A DNA stretch of 63,880 bases, counting the filler, from Kipferlia bialata (Eukaryota): assembly GCA_003568945.1 (NCBI GenBank). It is 5 parts of 4 records of this genome, joined end to end, with 100 filler letters (N's around TTAATTAATTAA, not from the genome) between each part and the next. Parts side by side here need not be neighbours in the genome. Positions count along the whole stretch, not along the records: positions 1 to 23,311 come from BDIP01000262.1; 4 more parts are not named here. One strand, written 5' to 3'. The position numbers and the translations under genes are program-made. Position 1 is the stretch's first letter; every line of letters begins with the position of its first letter. Below, piece after piece: positions 3,001-33,443 of this stretch. The notes beneath the pieces were generated by a model. That model was not told where the DNA came from. It did no database searches and worked only from the letters and a program-made list of their open reading frames with translations.

Positions 3001-6000
3001 CGCCGCCGGCCTCGTCTTCTCCACTACGGCCGCAACCTCCTTCAGTGAGATCGCATTCGACTTCCAGGCCTCTGGCAACTGGGGAGTCGACATCTACGCC
3101 GATGCAGTACGCGGGGAGAGCGCCGTTCATGTGTACTACAGACGTTCCCAATACGAGACCTTCGAGTTCCACAGCCTCCTCGTTGAGGCAGACGCTGATG
3201 TACAGCAATCTATCTACTTCCCCCCCAGCGTCGCTATTGACGGGGAGTGGATAGTGCGCTCTTCCTATGCTGACCTTGTGGACACTGGATATGACCTCAC
3301 CTACACCACGTTCCTGACCTTCTACCACCTCGAGGACGGGGTCTGGACCGAGGCACAGCAGATCGCAGTGCCAAAGGCCGGAACCATGGACTTTTCGATG
3401 GATGAGATCAATGACGCTGAGGTAAGTCGTTGTTTCTCTTCCTGATACACCAGAGGGGTGGCTCTTCTCTTGTTTATCTTTTGGCACATGTCTAACATAC
3501 AGTCTATGTTCCTCATGTTCAACCCTGGGCAGCTCCATGTGTACATCTCGGGTGGTATCGCTGTCCTCACCACCCCCCTTGCCCACGATGCCACCGGCTC
3601 TGCCCATGTACTCACCCTTGATGCCTCTGGATCATGGGCCTACAGCCAGGAGCTGGAGCCCGAGACTAGGGTCGATGGAGAGGTGTTTGGCACTGTCTGC
3701 AGCATCGACGAGGCCAACGACCGCATCGCCATATCCACCTTCATCCCTATGGCGGATGAGGCCCCAGCCTCTATCAATGCTGCCTATGAGTACGAGAGGG
3801 ACCCCGTTAGTGGAGAGTGGTTCCAGGAGAGCATTGTGCCCGGTGTAACTGACGGCTGGTGGCCATCCAAGCCCCACACCCACTTTGTTGGCATCAGCGG
3901 CGATGTCGTTATTGCCCATGTCATGGACGAGGTTGTCACAGCGACGCAGGACGAATGGGGCGACGAACACCTGCAGATGGGACGTACTCGCTTCTACACA
4001 CGCGCCCTCGGCGGCAGTGGTGGCTCCAAGTACTCTTACACACTTGACAAGACAATCGAGGGTATTCCTTGGAGCTATCTACATATAGCGTCTGTCACGC
4101 TAGGCCTTCAACACAACCAGTATTTGCTACTTACTTACCTTCAGGAAACAATGAGGGAGAGAACTTTAGTTCCTGTGTGCCGCTTGTCACCGAGGACATG
4201 GTTATGCTCACTGAGCCCAACTACTACAGAGAGCTCTCAGGTGAAGACGAGAGCAACAATGGTCTGACCGAGGTGTACACAAGAGACGCCGAGGGCTCTG
4301 ACTGGACCCCCATGTACTCCCTTACACCCACTACCTATGACGTCCTTATGGGTTTCTCCCAGACCATGAGCACCGACCCTGTCTCAGGCGATGTCTCCAT
4401 CACTGTCACAGACCTGGCCACCAGAGAGACAGAGATGTTCGGCCTCATCTCCTTCAACCCCATGCCCTCCTCTGTGCAGCTCTCCTCATGCCCCACCTCT
4501 CTGACCGAGGGCTCCAACGACGTGTCTGTATCTGTAGTCGACAAGGCCGGTGCCCCCCGCAGCGACGTGACTGTGTCCCTTATCATCACAGAGACAGAGG
4601 CCGGGGTATCCAACTCAGAGACACACTCCCTCACTGCCACAGGCACCGCAGGAACCTACGCGGTGTCTGGCATCACCGTTAGAGACGTCGAGACCACTGC
4701 CTCCATCGTTGCCTCTCTTGGCGGCACCACTGAGGTGACCGAGGAGCGCTACATGGTTGTGAGTGACTCTCCAGTCAGCGTCACCAGAGACCTCGATGTT
4801 CTCTTTGCCTCCACCACCATTGCCAGTGCCACTATCGACCCTATCCTCCTGGCTGCGGGTGTCGTCCACCTCACCGTGCGTGACGGCAGGGGCTCTGCCA
4901 TCAGCGGGCTGACCAATGTGTCTGTGGCCATCGGTGGGGGCTCGTCTGCTGAGGCCGTGTGGGACGGGGAGGCCTCCTACTACACAGCCACCCTCGGCGG
5001 CTCTGTCGCCCTCGGTGCCACCACTGCTGCAGTCACTGTGGCCGACCCCACCTATGCCTCAGCCTCCCTCTCTGCCTCCTGCCATGTCTACGGCACCCTC
5101 GCCTCAGTCACAGTGTCTCCCACCTCAGGGGGCACCGTTGCAGCAGGGGCCGGCCTCGACATCACAGTCTCTCTCTTCGACGCCAGCGGGGCCTCCCTCC
5201 CACCCATGGATGAGTACGACTGCTACGTCTCTGCCATCAGTGACGCCGGTGTGGACTCCATCAACGGCGGCGAGGGGACCACTGTGCTTGCTGTCTGGGA
5301 CGAGGAGGACGGTGTCTACGCGGTCACCTCCACCCCTGTGTCTCTGATTGGAGATGCAGTAGATGTCGTGGCACAGTGTGTTGTGGACGGCAGCGAGACT
5401 GTCGACTCTGCCTCTGCCTCTGTACCCGTCACTGTCACCCCCGGTGCCCTCAGCGCAGAGCACTGTGTGGTGTCTCTGTCTACCAACGACAGTGCCGCAG
5501 AGTGGTCCGAGGAGTCTGTGGCCGCAGGTGATGGGTTTGTAGTGTCCGTTGCTACCGTGGACGCCTACTTGAACCCCCTCTCCGACGAGACTGTCACAGT
5601 CTCCATCACCCTCGAGGACACCACCTCCACCACTCTGACCAGCACCTTCAACGCTGATCTCGACCTCTTTGAGGCACCCTCTCTCTCCTCCTTCGACACC
5701 CTTGCCCAGAACATCACAGTTGCAGTGTCCGTGGCACCCAGCACCGACCTCGGCACCACTTGGTTCGTCATCACCCCCAACCCCACCCCCTCTGCCACAG
5801 AGTCCACCCTCTCCCTGCCCACCGAGGCTGCAGCGGGTGCCGACATCGAGGTCACCTATGTCCCTGCCGACGAGTACGGCAACCTCATCACCCAGTATGA
5901 CAGCGTCACCGTGGCCTTTGTCCGTGAGTCTGCCACCCGCGGCACCCTCGCCCTCAGCACCACGCCTGACCCAGAATAGTACACAAGCAGCGCCGTCCCA

Positions 6001-9000
6001 GCCACCACCGTTGCAGGCAGTGCCATCCCCGTGTACTTAGTTGGATACATCGGTTCTGACATGCACTCCCTGGAGCAGTCCATCACCATCACTGCCGGGG
6101 CAGCCTCCACTGTCACCGTCCCAGACACCACCGCCCTCAAGGTCGGCGAGACCAGCACCATCGCTGCCACAGTGTATGACATGTACGGAAACCTGGTAGC
6201 AGACGACACCACGCCCCTGAAGGTCGGCTTCACTGACGATATCGGCACTGCCACAGACTGTACCCTGTCCACTGACGTCTGGATGTGTGACGTGACATAC
6301 ACGGCCGACAACCCCTTGTCTGTCGTTACCCTCTACACCTACCAGGACGGCTCTGCCATTGCCATGTACACTATCCGTGTTGTCGGGGGCACCCCCTCTG
6401 ACGCTGAGTCCTCTGTGACCCCTGACGCAGCTGTCATGGGCGCCACTGTGCTGGCCTCGGTGGAGCTCAAGGCATCCTCTGGTATGCTAGTCATGTACGA
6501 GCCCGACCACCCCACCGTCACACTCTCCTGGGAGGGCGAGACCGGCTCTGAGGAGGCTGTGTACTCTGCCACCTCCAAGAAGTGGCTGGCCAGCGTTACT
6601 GTCCCTGCCGCTACCGTGACAGGCAACGAGAGGAACCTCATTGTCAGCTTCAATGGCACCCCCCTCATGACCCACACCGTTACTATGGAGGATCAGACCC
6701 CTTCTGCTACTGAGTCTGTCGTGACCCCCGACATCTGCGCTGTCTCTGAGAGCCAGGGCTTCAGCATCGGCCTAGCCAACTCAGACGGTGTCACCATTGT
6801 CGACAGCGCCCTTGTTGTCACCCTCAAGTGGAGTGACGAGGACACAGTCTACTCTACCAGCCTCAGCACTGACTCCGGCGCATATGCCTCCCTGGTCCCT
6901 TCCTCTGAGGTCGAGGGCTCCCGCTCTCTGGAGGTGTACATCGACGGCACCCTCTTCCTCAGCCACTCTGTCACCCAGTACACTCCCCCCGAGGCCGCTG
7001 TCGGTACTGCTATCGAGGTGTCCGGCAAGGACGCAGACGGAGGGTACGGCGACACTGTCGTGATGGGAGAGGGTTGGACCATCATCTCTGCCCCCCTCAA
7101 CGGCGATGACGACGAGGGCAAGGTGTTTGTGATGAAGCAGACCGAGACCACATGGTCCCAGTACCAGGTCCTCGAGGCCGACACCTCTGCAGTCGACGGA
7201 CACTACGGTGACGCCATGTGCCTCACCTTCGAGGGTACCACCCCCACCCTCTACATCGGCCAGCCAGGCCGCGAGGCAGTGGATGTGGTGCAGTATAGCT
7301 CCAGCACATACCAGTGGGAGCACAGTCAGAGCATCCAGGCCCCTAACCCCATGCTTGGCGATGGCTTCGGCTCCACCCTTGCCTGCGAGGGGGACCTTGT
7401 GCTGGTCGGTGCCCCATACTCCTACACCCAGCTGGTACCCAACACTGGATCTGCCTATCTCTTTGACATGGGTGGTCAGTCCCTCTTCCAGACCCGCATT
7501 GTGTCCAGCTCCCCTGAGGAGAACGCCATGTTCGGGTCCGGCCTAGGCCTGGCAGGAGACATGGCCGCAGTGACCACCGGCCCAGACGCCTCCATCGCCG
7601 ACGAGACTGTGGTGCTGCAGTACGACTCCGACCTCGACAGGTGGGAGACGGCTTCCAACATCCCCTACGGAGGGTCCGACATCGTGCTGTCCACAGAGAT
7701 CCTGGGAGTCGCTGACCCCGCTCTGGACGGCGGCTTTGCCATCTACACCGCTGCCACGGGCTGGGGCGCTCTCTCCTCCGGCCCCACAGACACCGCCTCC
7801 AAGATGATCGCCAACACCAAGGACACCACCACCGACGAGGTGTCTCTGGCACTGGGCGGCGGCACACTCGTTGTCGTCAAGTCCAACACTGCCGAGGGCA
7901 CCGGCACCCTCACCGTCTTCACCAAGAGCGAGGGCACCGGAGCCTTTGTAGGCAGTGCCCCTATCGAGGTATCCGGCACCCCAGAGTCCGTGGCTGTCGA
8001 CGAGTCCGGCAACCTCTTTGTCGGCAAGAGCGGTGACGCTGGCACCGAGGTGACTGCCTTCGACCTGGCCTCCCCCACGGCCCTTGTGCTGATTGACGCC
8101 CCCGACTCCTTCGAGCAGGGCACCACCGGTGTCTCTGTGCAGTACTACTTCCTCGACTCCCTCAGTGCCGCTATCGCCATCACCGATGCTGACAACGTCA
8201 CCATGGGCGTTGGTGATGCCGCTGCCGTTGAGGGAGTGGCTAGTGCCGAGGAGTACTACACCTCCATCATCGACATCCCCGAGGAGGTCGGCAGGGTCGA
8301 GCTATCTGTCGACACCGGTAACGGCACCCTCCCAGGGGCCATTCTGGTTGTGGCTGGAGCCCCTGACGCCACAGAGTCTGAGATGTCTGCCGCCACTGAC
8401 ATTGTCGTCAACACCAACGTCGACTTCTCTGTCGTGCTCAAGTCATCATATGGCGATGTTGTGTTTGCCGACCATGATGTCGAGGTCAAGTGGACCTACA
8501 TGACCCCAGCTGGCACCAACACTGAGGTCACCGAGGTCGCCTCCATGGAGTCTGCCTCTGGCACCTACTCTGCAACCGTGCTGGCCGGTAAGGTTGTGGG
8601 TTCCTACACGGCCCAGACCGTGCTGGACACCGATGTGTTCCTATCTGAGTCGTTCACTCTTGTTGCCGGTGCACCCACCGCCTCTGAGTCCAGCATCTAC
8701 ATCACAAACAGCACCAGTCTCGAGGTCGGTGACACTGTTAACGTCAGCGCCACTCTCCTGGATGAGTGGACAAACGTGTGTGACAACGCCGCAGACGTCT
8801 CCATCTCCTTCGGGGGTGTCGACTGCACCACAACCTGGAACGGCGGCCCCGAGGTCTGGTTCGCCCAGTGCCCTGCCCCCACAGCTGGGGAGCAGCCAGT
8901 GGTGGTCTCCGCAGGGGGCTCCGTTGTTCTCTCCACCACTGTCACCATCGCTGCCGCCCCTGTTGACCCTGTTGACCCCGAGGAGCCCAGCGGAGGCTTC

Positions 9001-9327
9001 CCCTGGGTCGTTGTCATCATCATTGTGGTGGTGGTCGGAGGCGGTGTCGGAGGTGCGTTGTGGTACTTCAACAACAAGAAGAAGGATGAGGGCATCGATG
9101 AGTCAGCAGATGGCCTAGAGGTGTCTGCCAGCCCTGTGGATCAGGTCCCTGACGCTGAGGCTGATGTCAACGCCGAGGAGGGTGACGCCACCGATAACTC
9201 CTCTGGCTCTGAGGGCGAGGTCGTCGCAGTCTCCGGTCACGCTCTGGTCCCTGAGGCCGCTGGGGTGGTGGTGGTCCCCGTGATTGCAGTGGTTGAGCCA
9301 GTACCCGTGGCCGAGGACCAGGTCTAG
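54..9327 (+). CDS. Giant type-I membrane protein (5'-partial): FG-GAP-like beta-propeller repeats alternating with invasin/filamin-type Ig-like repeats, C-terminal TM helix; one in-frame TAG at 5977-5979
   Basis: Phase-compatible exons 54-179, 304-430, 558-708, 900-1227, 1328-2138, 2227-2615, 2684-3421, 3503-4061, 4145-9327. FG-GAP-like motifs: FDYSMAVLGNVMAVGCP, FGSTLACEGDLVLVGAP, GSAYLF. Ig-like repeats open with GxPxAxES and contain DxYGN. TM segment FPWVVVIIIVVVVGGGVGGALWYF is followed by NNKKK and an acidic tail. Confidence 0.8.
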
Positions 9328-11489: not shown

Positions 11490-14400
11490 CTATAATCCCC
11501 CGTGCTTTTCCACCATGTGTGCATACACAGGCCCTTCCCTGGTACTCACAAACCCACAGGCCCAGCACCAGTGCTTGCCACAGTGACATGTTATGTGGTT
11601 GCACCCCTCACTCTTCTCCACCGCCACCCCACAGCTAGGGCATGTATGCACACTGGCAGAGAGCTCTCGGAACCGGTTCAGCTCGTTGTTGAGATCGGCC
11701 TCTACCTTTTGTCTTGTCTTTGTACCATCACCGATGCTGATACCAGCCGAGTCACAGCTGTCCTGGAAGGCAACGTCCAGGTGGCCAAGGCAGGTGTCGG
11801 GGACAGTGATGGTGGCTGTACACTGCTGCGCAGAAGGCAGAGCCAGACGGGCAGTGTCAGTGGCTAGCACTAGAGTGATCCTACTCTGTGGCAGCATAGC
11901 GGACCCAGTGGCAAACACTAGGAGCAGCCGCAGAAGGGTGTCGTTCTGAAGGGCAGACTGCTCCTGAACGAACTGACTAAAAGCCTCTTTGAGCCTCTCA
12001 CTCTTGATGTCAAATGCTAGCATATACCGGTCGGCTGTAATGGCTGGCAGAGAGGCTGCCACTGTGAGGAACTGGTCGAGGGTGAGTGCCGCGACAGTCT
12101 CTCCGTACTCCTGATGCAGAGAGCAGTAGCCCCTGTGGATCTCCACCCCAGCCTCCATGGTGAGTCTGACGTAGGATGACTCAAACACCCTGGCAAAGGC
12201 ACTTGTGTTGTGTTCGTCCAGTACCAGGTCTGACTCTAGCGCACCTGGAACGGAGTCGAAGGGGACAGGGACAGGGTTCTCCAGCAGACGCAACAGACTA
12301 CGCCGCTGGGCAGGGAATGTTGCTGCAAAGAGGCGGGACACAGCTGCCTCGTCCTGCAGCTGTGCGTTGATGCCTCCCCTCATAGCGGCATACACTGCCA
12401 TGCCAAACAGGCCGTGGGGGAAGGGACCCTCTAGAAGCTGGAAGGCAAGGAAACGACCCAGGGCGGCATATGCATCTCGTATTGCGTCTAAGGTTGAGGT
12501 GTCCCCTGACTCTCTGCGCTCAATCATGATGCAGCACGCCTCGATGGATGGTATTAGCTGGTATGTGCCGTCGCCCCCAGCCTCCAGCAGAGTCACTTGC
12601 ATACCATTGATGCTCATGGGTTTCTGGAGGGCAGAGAGAAGCACATCGAGAGGTTTCACTTCCTCTCCGTCCACGACAGTTCCCTCCAAGCGACAGTGTC
12701 CGGTGATACCAGGAGTAGCAGGTGCTCTGTAATGCTGCAGTAGCGACTCAGGTGTGCATGGCACAGTAGGAGAGTCCTGCTTGACTGCCTGCACCTGCTG
12801 CCACAGCAGGGCCTGCAGTCTCTGCAGCCTGCCCAGTGCGGCATCTGATGAGTCAGGAGAGGCAGTAGAGGGTACGGCAAAGAGACCTGCTGCTGCCATG
12901 TGGTAGGCCGAGAACCGCTGTGCCTTGGGACCCAGGCACCTGTTGATGAGAGCAACATCTAGGGTACTCAGCGCAGGGCAGGTGAACGTGGTGACTCCGA
13001 ATAGCGGGATGCCCCGCCCCTCACCACCAGCAAACACCACCTGCATAGTACGTCCGAAGGAGTATACGTCGGAGAGGGCATCAAACTGCTTTGTGGCAAA
13101 GCTCTCTTGGTCCAGGAAGAGTACTGTTCCAAAGGCGGTGCGCTCCAAGGTGGTGACGAAGTCCTGGCTGTTTCGAGATATGTCAAAGTCTCCTAAGGCC
13201 ACGCCCGTCACTCTGCCCTTTGTGTGGTTGATGAAGATGTTCTGGGGCTTGATGTCCCTATGGACCACCCTGTGGCCCTCTAGGGTGGCCATTGCCTCTA
13301 GCACTTGCCTGCCTATGTACCGAAGGGTCTCTGTACAGGGCTGTGTCCCAAGGAAGTCCATCAGGTTACAGTCGTACATCTCTGTCACAATGTAGCAGGT
13401 GGGTCCCTCGACCACTAGCCCAAGGAACTGAACTATGTGTACGTCTCTGACCGTAGTGTACACAGACACCTCCCGTCTGGCATGCTCCATCTGTATCTTG
13501 TCGTTCAGGTCGTACCCCTTCAGCACCACTGGCAGGTGGGACTCAGGGTGTGTGCCCTGTAGCAGAGGGGCACGCCCGCACGTTTCAAACGGCTCCGGCC
13601 TGAAGGTGTGGAGGGGTAGGTGGAGGCACGACTTGGCGAAGGGGGAGAGAGAGGTCCCGTCTAGAGGGTGGTCGAGAGGGTTAGATGCAAGAACCTGGGT
13701 GAGCAACGAGTGTAAAGTATAAGTGCATTATAGACAAACTATAAATGCACAAGTTTCGTCAACGTCAGAGAATAGTTCATTACTATATGAGGATGGATAC
13801 CCACTAACCTCTGCAGCCTCGGGATGGAGCAAGTGGCGGTTGAGCCTTACAACCAAGCTCCGTCCCTTGGCGGTTACGGCATAGATGGCGTTCTGCTCCT
13901 CTTGAAGAGACGCCTTCTCCTTTTGGAACCGTTCACTATTCTTCCCACTCCTCATACACCTGGCAATACGCACATCACAGATGGCAATGTCCTCCTCGAG
14001 CTCATCGTGTCTGGTATTAGTTCTATAGTATGTATGGTGTATACGTGTCTGGTGATTGCACTCATTGAGCTGCCGAACAAGTCCATACCTATCCTGGGCC
14101 ACCACGGGTAGAGCCTTCAGCTCTGCTATGATCTCCCGCATGTCGGCCTCCTCAGCCTGTCTACACTGCAGCTCTCGGTACATCTCCTCAACCCTACTCC
14201 TGATGCTCCTTGCCTGCTTTACGGCATCTGGGTCTACCCCCTCTAGAGACTTGGTACATGCAGAGAGAGAGTCGTCAAGGTCCAGAAGGTTAGTTAATGC
14301 CTCCGCCACCTCTGCCACCACAGCGTTGAACTCTGCCACGTATACTGGGTCGATGGGTCCGGGGAGTCCCATACACACTGTAGCAGAGGTAGTGCTGCTG

Positions 14401-17400
14401 TCAGGGACAGGAACCAGTAGCTGTGCGTGGTCTAGCGTCGATTTATCACTCCTTGCTAGCTCAATTGCTCCCTCCACATCAAATTCCGTCTCCTGGAGAC
14501 TTGTTATTGCCCTTCGGTACTCTGTGAGAAGTGGCACAAACTCCGACAAAAGTGGGCTCACATTAGTACCACACAGCGAGTGTAGTGGGTGCTGACGTAG
14601 GAAGGACTGAAGAGAGTCGTTCATCTGCGATAAGAGTGTAGCTGCAACAGTGTATGGGTCCAGTGCCTGGACGGCATCGGAAAGTGCCCTGATGTCTACT
14701 GCTCGGACTTCATCGAGAATCCCTCGGACCACCTGTGATCAGAATATTGAGTGTAACTGTATATGGGTTTCATCCTTGGGCCAATGCTGGAAGGAGAAGT
14801 GTATCTACAGAGGAAAGAGAGACGGCATCACAAGACGGTAACGATACCTCAATCCTGTTGGGTGGATCCAACCACAGACACCAGTGGTTACCGTCTACTG
14901 GTTGGGGATCAAAGGACCTAGGCTCCTTAGGTAATGAAGGTGGTGTGTCTCTCTCAATCGCTACACTGCACGCAGCGACAAAGGGTGGGCGGCCAGGGAT
15001 CATTGTGTCACAAGGATCAATGTCTCTGTATACCTCTCCAGCTTCCACTGACTCTGGATCCCCAAGTAGAGCTCGTACTGCAAGTGTCCTGCCAAAGACA
15101 CTTCTGATACCACCCTCCCGCAGCCTATCTAGAGTGGCCTCTGCACCCCCCGTTGTGGTGGTCTCATTGTGTGCCTCTTCCTGTATGGCTTGGAGAGTGA
15201 ACGCCTCAATTTCGTCCTTGCTCCTGCCCATGGCAATCCACACACTGAGGAACAGTGGGCTGTCTAAAAGAGTGTAGACACTGCAGTATGACGGACGAGT
15301 CAAGAGAAGTCTCCCCTCTGACTCCTCTAGAACTCCGAGAGAGTACAGGATATCACCAGTTGGACTGGACTGTCCAGCCCACATTAAGTGTCGGAGCAGC
15401 TTCACCAAGGTCTCTCTCGGGCACTGTATGAAGTATAGGTACTCGGCCTCTAGTGTGTACCCACCCAAAGACACGCTCAAATCACTGAAGAGATCACACA
15501 GGTCTCTTTGGGCCCTGTCCGCGTCAGAGGGTGCACTGTCATCTGCAAAGCATGTGTCAGATACGGCACCAGAGAGCAGCCCCGTTGCGAAGAACTCCCC
15601 TTTGGAGGGCAGTCTGTATCCACTCGTATATAGGCTAGCGAGGTACTCCACCTCCTCCTGGTGCGTCGATGTCGAAAATGCTCTGAATACACGTGTTACT
15701 ACAGCATGTTGTCCGGTATGTGCAATCAGAAGGCTAAACAGCCATCTGCGGAGACAGGGCTCCACTGCTCTGACAAGGTCAGGCAGGATCCGCCAAAGGG
15801 GGGAGCGTGGTTCGTCACGCAAGTGGAATGAGAAGCACTTCAACACCTGTACCTGCCGACTAGTGTCCCCCTTGCATCCCTCCAGTCTCTTCTGAAAGAC
15901 AGATGTGACCTTAGTCGTGACACGTGGGGCTGCTGATACTAGTGAGGCAGCCAATGTGAGTGACGGTAGTGTCACTCTTGCCTCTGACAGCAGCGACAGC
16001 ACAGACTGTGTGTCCAGTGTCTCCAGGGTACTACCGCCAAGTCTTGAGAGTACCGGTACCCCCATGTTGGGAGCAAGGACCTTCAGTAGCTGCGATGATC
16101 CCATGCGTTGCCTATTTACCGCGGCATGCCTGCGTACCCAGGACAGATACACGGATACAACACTTGGATGGACAACCCTGGGCCCTGACAGGAGGGTGGC
16201 GAGTTCGGATAGGGACACTCCAATCGGTACGCTAGCCAGTGGGGTCAGGCATTGCCCGTGCTCCTCATCAATGCTAGTGGCCAGAACAGGGGCAGACTGG
16301 CAGTTGAGACCCAGCTCTGTCAGTGACACCATAGGAGTGGGAGGCCGCTTGCGGTAGAGAGCAAATGCTAGCATTGGCAATCGCACCGCCCATGTGTGGT
16401 CACGAGTCTCACTGATCAGAGAGATGGCCTGTCTAAGTGGCGTAGGGGGCAGGGTGGCAATGCACTGAGCGGCGAAAGCAACAGCACGAGCCTGCTCAGC
16501 TGGGCACAAGAGCCACAGGACGACACTCCTTGTGAACACCTCGAGGCTGCGAGGGAGCTCGCCCCACTCTGAAGACAGTGCATCTCCCAAGGGGATGACG
16601 GCTCTCCAGCCAAGGCTTCTGCTACGTGAGTACATCCACTTTAGCCTTACCAGAAGCTCTGGGTGTCTCCCGCTGTATATCCTTGTGACGGACTCGGCAA
16701 GGTGCAGAGCACTGTCGTAGTCTGACCTGTATAGCATGGCCCCTCTCTGATCGTAACGCCAGCGCCAATCAATGTTCTCGCAGATCAGCAACCGCAGGAA
16801 GAACTCATGCATGTCAAGCACAAGAGGAACCTCATCATGGGAGTCGTCTTCTGAGGCATATGTCGTAAGGACCAGATGAGCGGGAGCAGGTCGTTGGTAT
16901 TCAACCAGCGCAGACTGCACATACCCTATCTTCCTGATCATGACTCCCTGGTGTACAGATGATCCAAGGCCGCTCAGAACCTGTGACAGGGTGGTGTGAC
17001 CATGGCGCTCTAGTAACAAGGTGACGATTGGGACCTCATACCACTCTGGGGCTGAGGAATCAGCTGGAACCTCCCAAGACGAGATCCAGTCGCAGAGGGC
17101 GTTGAGTACAGACTCTGGTAGCTCGTACTGTCCCCTTGCTAGCCAGTCGCACAGCTCCCAATGTGGTTCTGGTGCTTTATCTTGACGAAACTCACACTCT
17201 CTGACAATCTCAATTGCCCGGCACACATCTCTTTCATACTCTGCGGGTGACATGCTGAATGGCAGGAGTCGAGCACTGGCTTCAAAGATGACTGCATGTT
17301 TGTTTCTACCGGTGTACTCAGGACATGGTACGTGACCAAACACACGATAACCGTATTCCACGAGACAAGCAAGGGCAAACGGCGCCATCTCATTCACAAT

Positions 17401-20400
17401 AATCCTGTGACGTCGAAACCGACTGAGGGCCACAACTGTCCTCCACATTGTATGGGCGTATGGAATACCCGTACCGCTAGTGACAAAAATCATAGCCGAC
17501 TCTACCCATGCAGCACCGTTCTCGAAAAGGGATAGAAGGGTCAGAGCGTATGTCTGTCGCTCGTCTTGCGACGACGCACCACACCACTGAGACATGTAGG
17601 GCCGCAGCTCCTGCCGCACCTGTGCCTCCAGTAACATGTGTGTTGCAGCATACAGCACACACACTTTGACCGGGTGACACTTAGAGTCCCGAAGCCACTC
17701 ACAGAGTGCTTTGGCGGGCAAGAGCTGCCTGTGCAGTAGTTCTCCGACGAATGACGTTGGAGAGTCCCAGTGGCGGAAGTGGCAACATCCCCACTCATCT
17801 GTATCTGAGTCTGCTCCTGTCACACAGTCTGTGTCCTCACCTTCCTCCTTGTCACACTCAACAAGTGACTTGGTGTATACAAAGCGGTCAGGATCGTGTC
17901 GATGCGGTACGACCATTGTATCGACTGAGAGACGTGGCAGAAGCCACTCCAACAGTGGAGGGGGCAGTTCTAGCAGATCCATCGTAGGAACAAATGTCCC
18001 CATAACGTCAGCTACATCACTAGTCTGAGGCTTTCTCATCACAATATCCCAGATGGCAGCACAATCCAGGCGATGGAAGTCTCTGTTGTGCTTGCCTTGC
18101 TGCCGTAGCCCATCCACAGTAATGGTACAGAGTGTGAGAAGGTTGTCTGGCAGCAGCAGGTGGGACCTCAGGCTAACGATCTGTGGCTGACATAACACCT
18201 CCTCTGCTACCCCCCACTGCTCAGTAGACAGGCAGCAGAGAGGTAAGTTGGTGCTATCGTCCTGTCTCAGTGGCCCAGGTTTGGCGTGGCTAAACATGGC
18301 TCTGACATCGGCCTCTAGATGGGTGAAACAGAGCATATGGTCTCTCTGTGCTACCCAGCGCTTCTCTGGGGCCCTCATGTACATGCAGTACTCATGGGTG
18401 GCAGCATCTGCCATAGCCTTGGTGCAAGTGATGTTGAGCTCGGTGTGACGGGCTAGACGAGCAGCATAGCGCCAGTGCCTGGTGGAAAACTCAAGGCTGC
18501 AGCGCCCCCACACACTCTTGTCACCAAAGAGACTGAGCAGGCTCGAGGTGTGTGTGTGTATGCTATCACTGGTAGTGCTTCCCCACTCTGACAGATACTG
18601 CCGGTGGTGAGGGGCAAGAGTGGCAGCTAGCAGCATGTGAGCAGTCACTTGCAGAACACTGCCCCCGGTCTGTCTGTCAACAGACTGGCTTAGCCAAGAA
18701 GAGAGGATCTCCGGCGAGACAAGACGTCTGTGGACAAGCCGAGCCGTGAAGGTGGTGGGAACATATCTCGCGGTGAAGGGCACAGCTAACGTGTCAGAGG
18801 GTGGAACACTATCACCAGTTGCTTCTGCTTCTGCAGGGCCAGGAGCATCCACCTTCAGCCTGGGTAGAATCCACTCAAGAAGAGCAGGTGGAAGCTCTAA
18901 CATTGCCATGCTAGGTTCGACCATCCCCATACGTATATCTTGGGGCACCTGCATCACAATGTCCCAAACAGGAGCACAGTCAAGGTAGTGATAGTCCCTG
19001 TTACGCCTGTCCTGCTGTCTCAGACCCCTATGTGTGCGATGACAGAGAGAGAGAAGGTTCCGTGGTTCAAGCAGGCAGGTAGTCAGATCAATGTTGGTAA
19101 TTGCAAGCACCTCTGCCATCTCAAGCCACTGAGGGGGTGTCAGGGTGGCAAGAGGCAGCTGCACGCTATCACCTGGCTGAAGGGCAGTTGTCTGAACGGT
19201 ACCCAGCAACGCCCTTACGTCAGGTAACAACTGCGTGTGGCAAAGCATCAGCTGCCGCTGCGCACACCACCGTCTTTCAGGTGCTCGCATATAGAGGCAC
19301 AGCTCGTGGACGGCGGCGTCTGCCATTGCCTGAGAGCAAGTCACGTTGAACTCAGGATAGACGGCAAGCCTAGTGGCATAGCGCCAGTCGATAGGTTTGA
19401 ACACCAGCCGACAGCAGCTCCAGACTGGGTTATCCCCAAAGAGAGGGAGGACACTTGAGATGTAGTCCCGGCTACTGATAGCATCGACACTACCCCACTC
19501 TCTGATGTACCGACGGTGTTGAGGGGCTAGGGTGCTTGTCACGAGCATGTGTGAGAGGGTATGTAGCACACATCCGCCAGTGTGTCTACTGACCGACAGG
19601 GATAACCAAGAGCAGAGACTCTCTGGCGACACAAGGCGTCTGTACAACAGCTGAGACGCAAAGCCCCAGGGCACAAACCTCGGAGAGTAGGGTATGCAAA
19701 GCGTACCATCTTCAGACAGCCTCGCATCTCTGGATGGACGAGAATCCACCTCTAGCCCAGGTAGCAGCCACTCTAGTACATTGGGAGGCAGTTCTAGTAG
19801 CCACAGAGGAGGGGACTTGATGACCTCATCCATCTGCAGGGGCTGTGCGAGTAGTCTCTCCCACAACGGGTAGACTGAGGTGTGACTAAAGTCTACTGGC
19901 GAGGGGTCTTGGGCAAGATACTGGACTGTCTTGGAGCACAGGGCCAGTAGAGGGCTGGGAGACTGGAGGATAGCTCGTAGGCTTGACCCCCCAGGGAGAC
20001 TCTCTAGCACCTGTTGCACACCCTCCCACTGGCCAGCAGTGATGTCCAGCAGGGCAAGTGCCTCTCTCTCTCTGTCCAAGAGCACACAGGCACTGGGTGT
20101 GCTGTTCACCAGAGACAAACAGAGCTGTGTACTACAGCCCCTACTCAAGAGTGGTAGTAACGCAGAGGGGAGGCATGAAGGATACTCCACTATGCATCCA
20201 TCAGAAACAAGTGCGTCTAGTAGTGGTGTCAGGCAAGGGGAGGAAAGTGCTCTAGCAGCTGCCAGGAGCACATTCCCTTCCTCGTCCTTGTCAGAACACC
20301 ACTGAGACAGCTCCTTACTTGTGAATGCCTGGATCAGAGAGTGCATGTCACACCATATGACCTCGAGACAGACGGAGTGGCGCAGAGTGGCAACCGTGTC

Positions 20401-21724
20401 CCCAAGAGAGGGGGGACACAGGGTGGCTAGGAGATGGGTTGCCATGGCCACGTTGCCATGTCTGATTGCAGTGATGATGGGACTCTTGACCCCACCCCCT
20501 CTGCCAAGAGGCCACAGACTACGCACTGCCTCTACCCCGATATGCTCAAGGAGAGCATCTGCGAGGGGAGTGGCATGCTTGTCACCTAGCCTGGCCACAA
20601 CGTGTAGGGGGGACTCTCCGTTGCACAGGGCGACGGAGGGGTCTGCCATGGCGTGTGGTATCTCTTTCCGACCCGACCTCTGAAGAGAGGCCGGAAGGGG
20701 CTGACCCAACACACCCCTCAGTAGGTGGAGCAGTAAAGCTTGAGAGATGCGTGGAATATTCTCCAGCAGTGCATGCAGCACCGTTGTACCAACGGTATCG
20801 GCAGAGAGGGAGGGGGGTGCAGCAAAGATACTCTTGCCAGTCAACACCTCCAGAGGGTCTATGCCACGCCGCTCTGTCTCTCTCCACACGTCAGCTGCCT
20901 CCAGTGGCCGTGAGTGTATAGAGAGTGGGCTGTACTCCTGGGGAGAGGCTGCCTCTGGGTCAGGATGGCAGGTGTCAACAGCGCCGAGGGCACACACCAA
21001 CTCAACGGCGGTGAAGGGACAGCGCGGCGGAGGCAGAAGATAGGGGCCACCCAACAGGTTGAGTCTACTGGGGTCTAATGCAACTTGAGAGGGTGTGCGG
21101 CCATACACATCCCTACAGTCCCTCAGTGTCTCCAGCACCCCTAGTCTCTGGCACTCACCCAGCAGTACAGTGTCATTCCTATACACTGCAAGATGGGCTA
21201 GGGTGGCACCCTGCCCGTCCCTCCCCTTCCAGTGCAGGGAAACTGCCAGAGCGTCCTCCAGACACCCCCTCTCTGCTGCTTGCACTAAGGCTATGGGGGA
21301 TAGGCCGGCTGTGACGTCACATGAGTAGAGCACGGCCTGTATATGGGGAGGGGTGTCAGAGAACGGGGGACCCACAGTCAGAAGCCTCTGGTACGAGGGA
21401 GGGAGGGAGTTGGCATTGAACCTCAGGGATGGGACTGGGACGAGGGGCAAGGGGTTGGCCCACACCCACTTGGGTGGAGAAGGTGGTACAGGGAGAGGCT
21501 CAAGATCCACTGGGTTGAGTATGATGCTGAGAAGTGGTAGAGCCAGATACGTATTTGCCCACTGACAGATGTAGTGACTGAGCTTGAATTCACACCAATG
21601 GCATTGCTGTACCTTGGGTTGGAGTGCGGTCTCTCCATGCATCTGTGTTCTTTGGCGCAGGCACACCTCCAGCGCTAGCCTCGTCCCTCTTTTCATGCTT
21701 GGATGCATCCTCTGAGGAGGATCC
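11490..21724 (-). CDS. Giant (>=3300 aa) protein: ankyrin repeats - three ~300-aa internal repeats - coiled coil - protein kinase - HECT - RBR RING2/Rcat
   Basis: Three ORFs join in phase through GT-AG introns. Exons 21724-21613, 21509-14848, 14732-13809, 13694-11490; junctions NRIE|VVRG and EAAE|VLAS. Ankyrin motifs GATLAHLA, GRTPSQVA, GTTVLHAL, GESPLHVVA. Kinase VVLK / HRDIKPQN / DFD. HECT LLVFATGSAMLP...LPSAQQC. Rcat CPSC...EKSEGCNHITCHCGKHWCWAC. Further small 5' exons are likely (e.g. 22142-22104); the start is unresolved. Confidence 0.8.
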
Positions 21725-23311: not shown

Positions 23312-23411
23312 NNNNNNNNNNNNNNNNNNNNNNNNNNNNNNNNNNNNNNNNNNNNTTAATTAATTAANNNNNNNNNNNNNNNNNNNNNNNNNNNNNNNNN
23401 NNNNNNNNNNN
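23312..23411. other. Artificial assembly spacer
   Basis: N44-TTAATTAATTAA-N44, with stops in all six frames; preceded by poly-C. Confidence 0.97.
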
Positions 23412-26468: not shown

Positions 26469-27828
26469 ATGTCTCTGGAGCGAGACCTGTACGAGCCCCC
26501 CACTGCGACTGATGACTGGACCAACACCCCCCAGACAGATGACAGACATAGGGGGAGGGGGAGGGGGAGGGGGAGACACCGTGCCCCTGTGAGAGAGACA
26601 GAGCCCACTGCAGAGTCCAAGGCGATTGAGGCCCCTGCTGAGGCAGAGTACCAGATCCTGGACCCCAAACGGTTCATCGAAGACTCTGTGTTTGAGAGAA
26701 TGGCCTCAGAGAAGCAGGAGAGGTCCGAGGCAGAGGATGCAGTGGGTGGGTGGCATCCTAATTTCCGACACATTCTATATATCTTACTTACTTAGAGGGA
26801 CTTATAATATGGCATGAAGGACTCATTTCTGTTCACGTGTATACATACTAATATGTGTGCCACTATAATCCTAACATCAGCCTGGTTCTGTGAGACAGAG
26901 ATGAAGTTCTCTTCCGCCAGAGCCCTTCTGGTGCTGAGGGCGATGTATCCCACCGTGGTACGTACACTGTATGCGAGAGATGGGCTGTATGTCCTCACCC
27001 TCCTTGTTCTTACCCCAGCTGACGTCGGTTCAGCCGACCATGTGTCTTGCCGAGTACTTCTGTATACTGCAGGTGCTGGATGGAGTGCCTGTGACCGACC
27101 TGCGCCCCCCGTCGTATGAGGGTCTGATTGTGGCATATCGCCAGACTGTGACAGGGGCCATGGAGGCCGGGTACACCGAACAGGACGTGCCGCCCCTCAC
27201 CCTCCTGGTGGATATGATGGACACCATGCCCCCCCTGCCCCCTCCTGGTATGCCCTGCGACCTCGACCTGTGGCCCCTGGCTGCCAAGGCCGCCATCGAG
27301 CCCCACTGGCAGGGCATTGTGGACGGGGTGGCCCAGCGGGTGGGGGAGAGCATAGGGCAGGTGCAGCTGAAGAGAGAGGCGTCCTTTGGCGGGGACAGAG
27401 AGTATGTGCTGAGGATTGGGGGGGCTGCAGTGCTGTATGGGGAGCGGCAGCTTGGGTACGACTCCTCTGAGTTCTGTCGGTCAGTCAGGCACCACATCTC
27501 GGGGTCTGCCCTTCAGAGCATGGCCCACTTCAAGGGGGCCACCCTGGCCAGCGTAGACAGAGACGAGGAGGAGAGCGAGGCAGAGGCACAGGCCCAGGCA
27601 GAGGCCCAGGCCCAGCTAGAGAAAGATGCGGGGGATGTGGAGATGGCTGATGGCCTGGGAGCAGAGGCTTCCGAGGAAGCGTCCAGCGATGACTCAGAGT
27701 ACGACATTCTTCTTAGTTATACGACTACTCTATCTCATAATTCACAGTTGGTCTTTGGTCTCACCTCAGTATGTTCAGTTAGGTTTGCACCATTCACTGA
27801 GATCCCTTCTTTTGGCCGTTGGTGGTGA
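26469..27828 (+). CDS. Hypothetical protein with N-terminal RG repeat and acidic C-terminal region
   Basis: ORF segments linked by probable introns at ~26742-26880 and ~26958-27018. No family recognised; the 3' end is uncertain. Confidence 0.55.
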
Positions 27829-28141
27829 GGGGTACACGCAGTAATTGTCAATGGGAGACTATCATCGGGAATACTCCTGATCAAGTGACTCCCGCATCGC
27901 CAGAACCCATATGGACATTAATATTATGGGAGTGCACAAATGTTATGAGTACATCCATTTGCTACGCGTAGGATTTTGGACATAAACTCCATCCCCAGAT
28001 TCTTCTTTCAATTTACGACTTAGTGTTAGAAACAAATACTATTAATAACTTGACATTTTTAGTATATCGGACAACCTGACCTGGTATCAGCAGAACGTAA
28101 CCTATAACTCTCTTTAGCCCAGAGAAAACTAGTAGGATCCA

Positions 28142-31009
28142 ATGGGTGGACCTGTTGGAGGTGGAGTAGACTCCAAGTTAGTGGATCGGTCCATTATGGA
28201 TGAGGGCTCTGACAATAGCAGTGGAGGCTCCGCAAGGTAAGATGACTGCTTTCATAATTGGTATATACCTTCCCCATGCAGAGATTTGCCTCCCTGCTTG
28301 TGTATACCTTTACTACGTGGCCGTAACTGAGTATTGTATGCATGAGGTTCAGATATATAGGCATTTCTAGTAACACTTCTTCATTCTCACACCGAGGTGC
28401 CTTATCATCTGCGGACTCTTCGTCCTGTTGGCCGCAATCCTCGTTGTTCTGTTCTTCGTTGTGATTCCTGCCGCCAAGATGCCCCAGGGATTCAATGTTC
28501 TCGCCAACTTTGCCGAGACTGATCAGAACACCACCTTCTCTCTGTACCCTGCCCTTGGCCGCATTGTGACCTTTGACTTCGAGTACAAGAAGGACCCCAC
28601 CCCAGACTCCGAGTACCGTCTGTACAAGGCCGATGGCGAGTTCAAGGGAGTCACCCAGAGCATATTCCCCTGGAGCCCCACCGACTCCTTTGACTGGGTG
28701 CCCCTGTACTCAGGCGACTGGGACCTGACCTTCTCCACCATGAGCGTGCCCGTCGGCACCTACCCCACCGCAGCCACAGACTCCGACCACTCCCTGGAGG
28801 TGGTTGAGAAGAAGTTCACTGTGCTGGCCCTGAGTGATATGGTTGCCTTTGACGAGCAGTTCAAGGAGTCCTACTCCTACAAGCTGACAGACTCCACAAT
28901 CACATTCCCAGAGACCCTGACCTCCCAGACAGTCAGGTACTCCCTGCCCGGCTTCAAGACGTCCACCCTGGACGATGAGTACCTGGCCCAGCACGATGAG
29001 ACAGTCCAGGCATGGGGCGTGAGGGTCGGCCACAAGCCCTTCCCCGACTCCCCCCTGCCCTTTGAGTTCACCCCTCTGGTAAGGGTCCAGGACATGGTGG
29101 CCACAGACGTGCTCATCTCCGGCCTGGCCTTCGACACATACGAGGTCAAGCACGAGTTCTACCCCGTCAGTGCCGTGGACGGACCCTTCTCCTGGACGTC
29201 TGGGGGAGACGGGCCCCTGGCTGCTGCCCCTGGGGCCAAGCCTGTGTTCCCCGACTTCAACATGCAGAGTGGCGCTGTGACGATGGAGGTGGACAAGCCC
29301 TTTGTCGGCTTCACAGCCCCCGCCTTCACCAACTCCATGGACCAGGACCACGTCCAGACATACGCAGAGCCCGCGTCCCCAGAGCCCTACTTCGCCATCA
29401 TGCCTGCTGGAGGTGAGGGGTGGCTGTCTGGTCTCTATGGCATCTGTGTATGTGTATGGGCTATGGCATCTGTGTATATGTATGGGCTTGTGTCTCTGCC
29501 CTCTCCCATATCTAACGACCAGGTGTTGCCTCTGTCCTCGACTCCATCGGAGGCTCCGTCGAGCACAGGCCTGTGTACCAGAAGGACAGGGAGGGGGACA
29601 ACGTGCTGCAGATCGGCATTGGAGGTACCGGCCACGCCCTGCTGTCTCTGCCCGGCCCCAACATGGACAGTGCCAACGCTGACGGCACCACAGGCCAGTA
29701 TGTGGTGGAGGTCGACAACGCCGGAGACATCCTGCGTCTGACCTCTGTGCTGCGTGTGAATGAGCAGCTCGACGCCATGGAGGGAGACTTTGACACCGTG
29801 ACTGCCATTGGTACCTGCGACGCGGCTGTCCTCCCCATTGACTATGCCTCCCGGTCACTGAGGGGCCAGGTGGTGGTGAACGCAGTGGCCATGTCACAGA
29901 TAGAGGGGTGCAGCCCCAAGAGCTACAAGGTGGGGGGGAGTGTATACAGAGGCATAGTGACTGTCCGCTCTCAATACCTGCTCTCTCAATATGTACTGTC
30001 AGCATGTATATAACCTATATTCATTATAAGACATATATACACAATCATATGTGTATACTAACTTATCTATCAATACTGACTGCAGGACAAGGAGCTGAAG
30101 GAGCAGGGCCTGTACCATGCCGGGGACGCCCTGTCTGCCTCTGACCTCGAGGGTGTGTGCCAGGTGGCCAAGGACTATCTGCTGGTGCTGGACAGTGCCA
30201 CCTTCGCAGTCACCAGCGTCATTGACGTGGCCGCAGCATACCTCCCAGCCACCTCTGTCACCCCCATCGTCCCAGGCATCTTTGACACCGAGCTAGGCCT
30301 CAGGGGCCCAGTCTACGGCACCGTGGGCGGCACTGACTACGGCAGAGTGGCCCAGGACACCCTGCGTATCAACTCTGTCTTCTACGACCCCTCCGACGAC
30401 TGTCTCTTTGTGTCCCTCCCAGACTATGGTGATGTCGTCAAGGTGACCCAGGACGGAGACCTCGTGTACGCCATGTCCGACTTTGCTGTCCACGATGACA
30501 GGCCCCTGCCCTCCACAGACAGCATTACCAACCCAGTCAAGAGCGCATTCACCTTCCAGCGCCAGGGAGCTCCCTTCTTCGCCGCCGTCTCCGACACCCG
30601 TGGCACCAGCCTCACCCTCTGGATGGCTCTCTTTGAGTCAGACGGCGAGACCTCCTACGTGTCCCTCTATGCCATCGACGAGACCCACCGGTCCCTCGTC
30701 TGGATGCAGGGCGCCGTGGACTCTCGGTCCCCTCTGCCCGAGTGCTCCACATTCACCAGGGCCCAGATCCTGGCCTCCGGCAACCTCCTCGCCGTGTGTG
30801 GCTGTGCCGGTGCCAAGAAGGGGCCAGGCAACTACCCCAAGGCCTCGACAGCCGCATACGAGGTCAACGACACCAACCTGGTGGTTGGGTACTACCTTGC
30901 TGATGATGCTGCATCCTTCTTCGCCAAGGTGCCCTCCACCTACGTGGGTGACCGTTACCACGCCACAGAGCGGACCCTCACCCACACTGCCGCCCAGTAC
31001 AACATCTAG
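28142..31009 (+). CDS. Type-II membrane protein with C-terminal aryl-sulfate sulfotransferase (ASST)-like beta-propeller
   Basis: Exons 28142-28236, 28397-29412, 29523-29929, 30086-31009, all in phase. N-terminal anchor CLIICGLFVLLAAILVVLFFVVIP. LRINSVFYDPSDDCLFVS..DVVKV..DG resembles ASST HVNSIAYD..DDSIILSSRHQGVVKI; also YAIDE and AQILASGNLL motifs. Confidence 0.7.
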
Positions 31010-31364
31010 GTCCATACGACACAGTCTCTAGTGGCTTATTTTGTTTGCGTGGGGTGTTTGGTCCTCCACGCCAGAATCTTAATTGCTATAAATTTGTTAT
31101 AACCTGACACCCTAACACTTGTAATTACAGAGTATGGTTGTCACTCCAGCAAAGGAATGTTCTTCTAGACTGACTATAATGTGACTCTCACAGTGGTGAC
31201 ATTACATCACGTATATATTACGACTCCACTCCAGGGGACTATAATTGATAGTTCTCTGGCCAATGTGCTGGCATATATCAGACAAGGGGTGTAGAATTTT
31301 TGGTTCCGGAAGAGCTGTCATGTACTTTGCTATGAATTGTTGCTTTTAAGTCAGTCGTCAACTG

Positions 31365-32984: not shown

Positions 32985-33443
32985 GCCCTCGGCTCCAGGC
33001 AGCATCGTGTAACCAGTATCAGTATCAGTTTGCGTTCCAGGCGGATATGAGTGTATGTCCGTACATACATACCTAGGTCCAGAGCACGGGTTGGAAAGAC
33101 ATCTCCTCTGGAAAGACTCTTCCCCGTGTTCAAATGGTGCTATTCGTGTTTCCTTTATATGTATTTTGTGTATTTTTCGTTCGTTTTTTGTGTGTTTCTT
33201 CAACTCTCATGCCACATATACATGTGCGTGTAGATTGGTGGGAATCATCATCCATGATAGATTTTCCATCAGGGTCACTTCCCTGTTACTCCTTCCTCCT
33301 GAGCATCTCTACAATACCATACGCTTTACAGAACAAATGAGTCAATCAACATATCTATCTCTTCTATTCTTGACACAATTCAAAACACATTCAAAACACG
33401 ACGTGAGACACGTACAATACTACAGTACATACTATCAATACCC

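What the first reader, a model, noticed from the sequence alone, without database searches (positions are those of the whole stretch)
11490..13694. Kinase + HECT + RBR-Rcat in tandem: two catalytic-cysteine E3 modules in one exon
Seen: a kinase with VVLK, alphaC Glu, HRDIKPQN and a DFD variant. It is followed by a HECT domain whose catalytic Cys is retained (LPSAQQC, 11820-11822), then an isolated RING2/Rcat with its catalytic GCNH Cys (11601-11603). Established: HECT domains normally sit at the extreme C-terminus, and Rcat is normally loaded by an E2 bound to RING1-IBR, which I do not see in this protein. Inference: HECT could replace RING1-IBR as the loader, giving an E2->HECT-Cys->Rcat-Cys->substrate relay, or the two modules build different chains under control of the fused kinase. 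I do not know a described ligase with this architecture, but I could not search.
Basis: partly seen in the sequence, partly recalled or inferred. Interest (0 to 1): 0.88.

Follow-up and report, generated by a model that had tools for sequence, protein, structure and literature searches.

The report
HECT ligase capped by RBR catalytic finger
A gene family of the free-living protist Kipferlia bialata joins a kinase, a predicted HECT ubiquitin-ligase domain and the lone catalytic finger of parkin-type ligases in one chain, an order said in print not to occur, and it likely passes ubiquitin from the first active-site cysteine to the second before tagging a target.

Summary
The exon (13691-11490, minus strand) ends a 3325-aa Kipferlia bialata gene model: kinase, divergent HECT domain, then helix plus Rcat. 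The HECT is below Pfam's cut-off here (13.6 bits), but one paralog passes it, and the predicted fold matches solved HECT domains over both lobes (Z up to 15.5). The protein has no RING1-IBR. Ten full-length paralogs with varied N-termini (ankyrin-like, LRR, Kelch) keep both cysteines (10 of 10). None has the '-4 Phe' or free C-terminus that HECTs need to ligate lysine but not to accept ubiquitin. All keep the helix before Rcat, which in RBRs binds donor ubiquitin. That pattern favours an E2 -> HECT-Cys -> Rcat-Cys -> substrate relay (about 45%); no activity was tested. Against: the E2-binding subdomain looks shortened, and one fragment lost only the HECT Cys. Kinase+HECT is already known in other protists, and the kinase is dispensable in some paralogs. 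HECT+Rcat was found only in Kipferlia and in none of eight literature searches. Earlier scan notes report other RING1- or IBR-less Rcat fusions on other DNA, none with HECT.

The parts
11490..13691 (-). Last exon (733 codons + stop) of the 3325-aa gene model P0006 (KIPB_001761)
   Evidence: exon mapping and GT..AG introns; record name
12880..13607 (-). Protein kinase domain (approximate limits): Lys, alphaC Glu, HRD and DFD kept; no Gly-rich loop consensus
   Evidence: Pkinase 79.7 bits; fold matches to kinases; motif table
11733..12830 (-). Divergent HECT domain, N-lobe and C-lobe (366 aa)
   Evidence: Foldseek and VIA-align to solved HECTs, model residues 1-363; paralog P0010 passes PF00632
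11820..11822 (-). HECT active-site Cys position (model C337), invariant in 10 of 10 full-length paralogs
11733..11741 (-). Place of the HECT '-4 Phe' (Cys+27 to Cys+29): Ile-Ser-Ile here; Ile/Val, Ser/Thr, Ile/Leu/Val in all 10 paralogs, never aromatic; the chain continues
   Evidence: Rsp5 Cys777/Phe806 spacing; structural end-points, model 362 = Rsp5 803; columns
11658..11714 (-). Helix before Rcat (predicted at model residues 373-384, low confidence; L384 and F387 invariant, L/I390); counterpart of the RBR donor-ubiquitin helix
   Evidence: role in RBRs from PMC9834252 and PMC11317638
11493..11654 (-). Rcat/RING2 domain: eight Zn-ligand positions (six Cys, two His) invariant in 10 of 10; catalytic Cys 11601-11603, His 11595-11597
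   Evidence: PDB hits to RING2 of parkin, ARIH1 and RNF216
13806..14732 (-). Two exons (14732-14088, 14009-13806; limits within 3 nt) coding a helical region shared by the family (P0006 aa about 2305-2600)
   Evidence: blastp to 7 full-length paralogs, E 1e-12 to 1e-38
14845..21510 (-). Large exon: weak ankyrin-like repeats (about 20428-20646) and three to four degenerate repeats of about 300 aa (about 17227-20136)
   Evidence: Ank_2 17.1 bits, below cut-off; self-comparison up to 55% identity
21614..22310 (-). Three short 5' exons of the gene model (22310-22212, 22142-22089, 21724-21614)
   Evidence: predicted model only, no spliced read seen

Best explanation
This is likely a two-cysteine relay ubiquitin ligase, in which the predicted HECT domain would take ubiquitin from an E2 onto its cysteine and hand it to the Rcat cysteine 73 residues further on, which would ligate the substrate. 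Shown by sequence and model: HECT fold, both cysteines, intact Rcat, no RING1-IBR, and loss of the HECT ligation tail. Inferred: E2 binding by the N-lobe, thioester formation on C337, transfer to C410 guided by the helix before Rcat, and substrate choice by the variable N-termini. The kinase is probably an optional regulator or built-in trigger, not part of the catalytic path.
For: (1) Both Cys are invariant in 10 of 10 full-length paralogs at 37-67% pairwise identity. Only one other HECT column is all-Cys, and 18 of 108 C-lobe columns are invariant. (2) The -4 Phe position is aliphatic in 10 of 10, and 80 residues follow it. In Rsp5, Phe806Leu blocks ligation but not thioester formation, and C-terminal tags hinder activity (PMC3738095 passages). 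So this HECT looks able to accept ubiquitin but unable to ligate it. (3) The fusion keeps the helix-Rcat unit and drops RING1-IBR. In RBRs RING1 is the main E2 recruiter, while helix-RING2 binds mostly ubiquitin's I44 patch (PMC9834252 section 10). HECT C-lobes hold the I36 patch and leave I44 free, so both modules could touch one ubiquitin at once (inference). (4) Isolated parkin Rcat is loaded by a chemical ubiquitin thioester without E2 (PMC11317638). (5) Kinase, HECT and Rcat trees share the deepest split (support 0.996, 1.000, 0.983), so the modules were inherited together. (6) In P0012 both Cys are lost together (one case). (7) An intramolecular Cys-to-Cys relay over about 24 A has a precedent in MYCBP2 (PMC9527308).
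Against: No biochemical data. The E2-binding part of the N-lobe looks shortened: P0010 covers 272 Pfam positions with 253 residues, and the model shows no hairpin between residues 184 and 209. That canonical HECTs have a hairpin there is recalled, not checked. The His two residues before the HECT Cys, part of the NEDD4 catalytic site, is Gln in this copy and His in 7 of 10. Fragment P0014 has lost the HECT Cys but keeps the Rcat Cys, which an obligatory relay does not predict, unless that record is a decaying copy. Divergent HECTs can be non-functional, as reported for G2E3 (PMC3673628 section 16). Invariance of one Cys has a background of about 1 in 6 C-lobe columns. The active-site loop and linker are the lowest-confidence parts of the 446-aa model (pLDDT < 50 at 328-338 and 366-381). 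Rcat His is Arg in 3 of 10 paralogs, though RNF216 also has Arg there.
Confidence: 0.45

Rival explanations
1. The HECT domain works only as an E2 dock in place of RING1. Ubiquitin goes straight from E2 to the Rcat cysteine, and the HECT cysteine is vestigial or a side branch.
For: An E2~ubiquitin on a HECT N-lobe leaves I44 free for the helix-Rcat unit. P0014 keeps the Rcat Cys without the HECT Cys. The His at Cys-2 is lost in 3 of 10, this copy included.
Against: The HECT Cys and the surrounding L331, P332 and P344 are invariant in 10 of 10. The apparently shortened E2-binding subdomain weighs on this reading as much as on the relay.
Confidence: 0.22
2. Both cysteines are loaded from E2 and ligate in parallel, building different or branched chains, as in two-route ligases such as ZNFX1.
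For: Both active sites are conserved. ZNFX1 has a two-route circuit wired in parallel (abstract only). A free carboxyl can be supplied by an acidic side chain rather than the C-terminus (PMC13196369), and Asp368 follows in 6 of 10.
Against: No -4 Phe in 10 of 10 and a long C-terminal extension, both ligation-specific defects in Rsp5. The Rcat would still need a loader.
Confidence: 0.18
3. The HECT is a catalytically dead scaffold (G2E3-like), and the Rcat is loaded in trans by a separate RING protein or is itself only a ubiquitin-binding finger; the kinase is the main output.
For: The HECT is 11-16% identical to solved HECTs. ESM Atlas look-alikes include G2E3-type and giant-virus HECTs (scores 0.76-0.79, leads only). 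G2E3's HECT is reported non-functional. Kinase Lys/Asp/Asp are kept in 9 of 10.
Against: Both non-Zn cysteines are invariant. HECT+Rcat persists where the kinase is dead (P0010) or absent (P0024 with P0016, consecutive gene numbers on one contig).
Confidence: 0.15

Closest known systems
HECT E3 ligases (Rsp5/NEDD4, HUWE1, AREL1, UBR5, E6AP); in particular the divergent class IV 'GL-Bikonta' proteins of Naegleria and Ectocarpus that carry kinase domains (PMC3673628)
   Same: Bilobed HECT fold over about 360 residues; Cys at the active-site position; kinase fused to a divergent HECT has precedent
   Different: Not C-terminal; no -4 Phe; followed by helix+Rcat. [quoted passage not shown] Placement in class IV was not tested.
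RBR E3 ligases (parkin, ARIH1/HHARI, RNF216, HOIL-1)
   Same: Rcat with catalytic Cys, His/Arg two residues on, eight Zn-ligand positions, and a preceding helix with a conserved hydrophobic face
   Different: No RING1 and no IBR. The second Zn site ends in two His, as in fungal and VWA-type RBR-like proteins found. PMC3940038 (2014) knew no protein with an isolated Rcat.
MYCBP2, RING-Cys-Relay ligase
   Same: Two catalytic cysteines in one chain with intramolecular transfer (PMC9527308): the proposed way of working
   Different: MYCBP2 uses a RING and its own Zn domain; no HECT and no Rcat. No homology was found or claimed.
CUL9 and ARIH-cullin E3-E3 assemblies; LUBAC
   Same: Two kinds of E3 module in one chain or complex (search listing); a relay has been proposed for LUBAC
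   Different: They keep a whole RBR and have no HECT.

Membership tests
HECT E3 ligase | Bilobed HECT fold of about 350 aa | tested here: met
   Foldseek E 1e-6, all top hits HECT; VIA Z 15.5, 315 aligned, rmsd 6.0; P0010 above the Pfam cut-off; this copy is below it
HECT E3 ligase | [quoted passage not shown] | tested here: met
   C337 lies within the PF00632 227-282 match and is invariant in 10 of 10; position only, not activity
HECT E3 ligase | Domain at the C-terminus of the chain | tested here: not met
   80 residues follow in the same exon, with no intron or stop; same in 10 of 10 paralogs
HECT E3 ligase | -4 phenylalanine needed for ligation | tested here: not met
   No aromatic at Cys+26 to Cys+30 in 10 of 10; position set from Rsp5 numbering and structural end-points, not from a residue-by-residue alignment
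HECT E3 ligase | E2-binding subdomain of the N-lobe | tested here: inconclusive
   Region present but apparently about 15-20 residues shorter; no canonical HECT sequence could be aligned
HECT E3 ligase | Forms a ubiquitin thioester from E2 | not testable with these tools
   needs an in vitro assay
RBR E3 ligase | RING1 domain | tested here: not met
   No CxxC outside Rcat in 3325 aa; no RING in Pfam scans of the 10 paralogs
RBR E3 ligase | IBR/BRcat domain between the RINGs | tested here: not met
   A single IBR-fold match per protein, at the C-terminus
RBR E3 ligase | Rcat with two Zn sites and a non-ligand catalytic Cys | tested here: met
   Eight ligand positions plus C410 invariant in 10 of 10; aligns to RNF216 668-733 and the ARIH1 and parkin RING2
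RBR E3 ligase | Donor-ubiquitin helix before RING2 | tested here: inconclusive
   Helix predicted at low confidence; L384 and F387 invariant, L/I at Cys397-7, the place of parkin I411; binding not tested
RING-Cys-Relay (MYCBP2) | RING plus tandem-cysteine Zn domain | tested here: not met
   No RING; the resemblance is in the proposed mechanism only
Active Ser/Thr/Tyr protein kinase | Beta3 Lys, alphaC Glu, HRD, DFG, Gly-rich loop | tested here: inconclusive
   Lys, Glu and both Asp kept in 9 of 10; DFD in 6 and DFG in 3; no GxGxxG in any

The most novel reading that the evidence does not exclude
A new class of E3, a HECT-Rcat relay, in which a HECT domain has given up ligation and serves as an in-chain second E2 for an RBR catalytic finger. 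Kipferlia has amplified it as a cassette behind swappable LRR, Kelch and ankyrin-like sensor domains and a kinase, much like an immune-receptor family.
Probability: 0.42. Interest if true: 0.88.

Novelty: new variant of a known kind. Interest (0 to 1): 0.72.

Why it matters
It breaks two stated rules of the ubiquitin field: HECT domains are always C-terminal (PMC4327156), and Rcat comes only with RING1 and IBR (PMC3940038). If the relay is real, it is the first ligase passing ubiquitin between the catalytic cysteines of the two main thioester E3 families. It would show that acceptance and ligation by a HECT can be separated in nature. The 446-aa unit is small, comes in ten natural variants and can be tested with two point mutants. 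Its reach is limited so far by being seen in one species.

Tried and rejected
No whole genome is held for this window, so family size comes from protein searches and is a lower bound, and dN/dS could not be computed. Sequence searches of PDB gave no HECT hit, so no residue-by-residue alignment to a canonical HECT was obtained. A search with the HECT part of P0010 among shorter proteins found nothing at E <= 10. The co-folding of HECT (1-366) with helix-Rcat (370-446) gave no verdict (score 0.11, mark 0.34); it is no evidence either way. The structure tool returns no coordinates, so the Cys-Cys distance could not be measured; pTM was 0.45 for the exon and 0.61 for HECT-Rcat. The scan of viral contigs gave one locus, a VWA-like protein with RING-like and Rcat motifs, matching only the Rcat. 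The metagenome scan gave none. Both scans rely on exact short patterns and are weak for distant relatives. Expression: run X1 is spliced RNA on other genes of the window (11 GT..AG or CT..AC joints). On this gene it gives only short identical contigs of 222-336 nt at depth 3-4 and no joint, so the exon junctions of P0006 are unconfirmed and low DNA carry-over is not excluded. Rejected: a frameshift or assembly artefact joining HECT and Rcat (same order in one reading frame in 10 paralogs on different contigs); the finger being an IBR rather than an Rcat (best hits are RING2 domains and the last finger of RBR proteins); a hidden RING1-IBR upstream. ESM Atlas hits scored under 0.8 and are leads only. 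Supplements of PMC3673628 and PMC4327156 (architecture tables) were not opened and could list a HECT+IBR protein.

Full report
Gene and organism. The region is the last exon of a seven-exon minus-strand gene. A database protein identical over the last 446 residues, P0006 (3325 aa), maps to 22310-11493. Its six introns are GT..AG, with a branch-point-like CTRAC, CTCAC or CTGAT close to most acceptors. The record is Kipferlia bialata KIPB_001761 on a 23,311-nt contig; the window has an N-linker after 23311. The exon begins at 13691. An RNA run shows splicing on other genes of the window, but on this gene only short identical contigs at depth 3-4 and no joint. Transcription is therefore weakly indicated and the junctions are unconfirmed.

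Observation. The kinase is clear (79.7 bits; kinase folds). The terminal finger matches RING2/Rcat of parkin, ARIH1 and RNF216 (RNF216 668-733 aligned at Z 4.8, rmsd 2.4). It has eight Zn-ligand positions plus a non-ligand Cys and a His. The middle 366 residues score only 13.6 bits on PF00632. However, paralog P0010 scores 37.5 bits over model positions 28-299. An AlphaFold2 model from a 10-sequence alignment (mean pLDDT 78.7) matches HECT E3s across both lobes: all listed Foldseek hits are HECTs, best E 1.1e-6, and the 18 of 48,161 chains at Z >= 8 are all HECT, best 15.5. The only two CxxC pairs in 3325 residues are in the Rcat, so there is no RING1-IBR.

Family. Searches returned 19 related records, all named K. 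bialata. Ten are full-length for kinase region + HECT + Rcat, at 37-67% pairwise identity in the last 446 residues. One is degenerate (P0012) and eight are fragments. The N-termini differ: ankyrin-like plus long repeats here, LRR in P0007, Kelch in P0008, P0010 and P0024. P0010's kinase has lost its catalytic motifs. P0024 goes from Kelch straight to the HECT N-lobe, and the next gene number on the same contig (P0016) holds the C-lobe and Rcat. HECT+Rcat is thus the constant unit. Trees of kinase, HECT and Rcat from the 10 full-length members share the deepest split (0.996, 1.000, 0.983); shallower nodes differ and are weakly supported (fragments and P0012 left out).

Outside Kipferlia. The search of 1.84 billion representatives gave 1710 hits at E <= 0.001, of which I saw the best 150. 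A family HECT profile matched 0 of the 134 non-family proteins held. Pfam showed no HECT in 73 of 73 of those at least 400 aa long (in one search only the best five families per protein are shown); those with a Pfam call are mostly RBR or VWA-plus-Rcat-like proteins. A profile search of longer proteins added only three fungal RBR-type proteins. These searches would miss a HECT+Rcat fusion of independent origin with a dissimilar HECT, so 'unique to Kipferlia' is not proven.

Mechanism. Three features of the family point the same way. First, the HECT Cys (C337) and the Rcat Cys (C410) are invariant in 10 of 10; C-lobe columns are invariant in 18 of 108 cases, so this is suggestive, not decisive. 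Second, the HECT has lost what is specific to ligation. In Rsp5 the -4 Phe lies 29 residues after the Cys; changing it to Leu blocks ligation but not thioester formation, and C-terminal tags hinder activity (PMC3738095, passages; PMC13196369, passages). Here Cys+27 to +29 is I/V, S/T, I/L/V in 10 of 10, with Leu at +29 in 7, and 80 residues follow. Structural end-points put Rsp5 803 at model residue 362. Third, the part of the RBR that was kept is the helix-Rcat unit. In HOIL-1 and RNF216, RING1 recruits E2 and helix-RING2 binds mainly ubiquitin through I44 (PMC9834252, section 10). Parkin has the same guide helix, and its isolated Rcat is loaded by a chemical ubiquitin thioester with no E2 (PMC11317638, passages). 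HECT C-lobes use the I36 patch and leave I44 free. L384 and F387 are invariant and position 390 is L/I in 10 of 10. I infer that E2 loads C337, the helix catches the I44 face, and C410 takes over and ligates. MYCBP2 shows that such an in-chain relay is chemically feasible (PMC9527308, passages).

Against. The E2-binding subdomain seems short (the canonical layout is recalled). The His at Cys-2 is missing in this copy and two others. P0014 keeps the Rcat Cys without the HECT Cys, while P0012 lost both. G2E3-type divergent HECTs are reported inactive (PMC3673628, section 16). The model is poor at the active-site loop and linker. Odds: relay 0.45, HECT as E2 dock 0.22, parallel ligation 0.18, dead HECT 0.15.

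Comparison with the known. It works, by inference, like a relay ligase built from a HECT and an RBR finger. It fails membership of canonical HECTs (not C-terminal, no -4 Phe), of RBRs (no RING1, no IBR) and of RCR (no RING). Kinase+divergent HECT is already noted for Naegleria and Ectocarpus. A survey states that HECTs take no C-terminal domains in any eukaryote (PMC4327156, passages), and a 2014 review knew no isolated Rcat (PMC3940038, passages). Eight library searches listed no paper on a HECT-Rcat fusion or on this family; I judged most from listings, and the library lacks most subscription papers. Also seen: PMC9547173 and PMC3772753 (passages) and the ZNFX1 preprint (abstract and outline). 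Salvat 2004 was seen only as cited. Earlier scan notes describe IBR-less RING-Rcat and orphan Rcat-like modules on other DNA, so a detached Rcat is recurrent in protists. None pairs it with HECT.

Verdict. A real, conserved and apparently undescribed E3 architecture, with a coherent but untested relay mechanism, so far in one species. Interest 0.72; new variant of a known kind, and a new E3 class if the relay is shown.

Noticed in passing
window 23312-23410: A run of N with a TTAATTAATTAA core joins two contigs; the gene's contig is 23,311 nt, so genes beyond it need not be true neighbours.
   Followed up: partly
window 33444-45140 (-): A 3898-codon open frame with no Pfam match, no internal repeats and no transmembrane-like segment.
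   Followed up: partly
window 17227-20136 (-): Three to four degenerate repeats of about 300 aa in the N-terminal part of P0006 (24-55% identity), with no Pfam match and no match in the paralogs held.
   Followed up: partly
window 26744-34000 (+): One 7261-nt RNA contig joins seven GT..AG introns and runs through an importin-alpha-like ORF (31350-32984) and several upstream ORFs without a Pfam name; it may be several genes in one contig.
   Followed up: no
window 4048-9327 (+): A large FG-GAP-containing, probably membrane-anchored protein ends just downstream of the ligase gene on the other strand.
   Followed up: no
L001:1307-4261: A giant-virus contig encodes a 984-aa protein ending in RING-like and Rcat motifs; many VWA-plus-Rcat proteins with a single IBR-family match were among the Rcat hits.
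   Followed up: no
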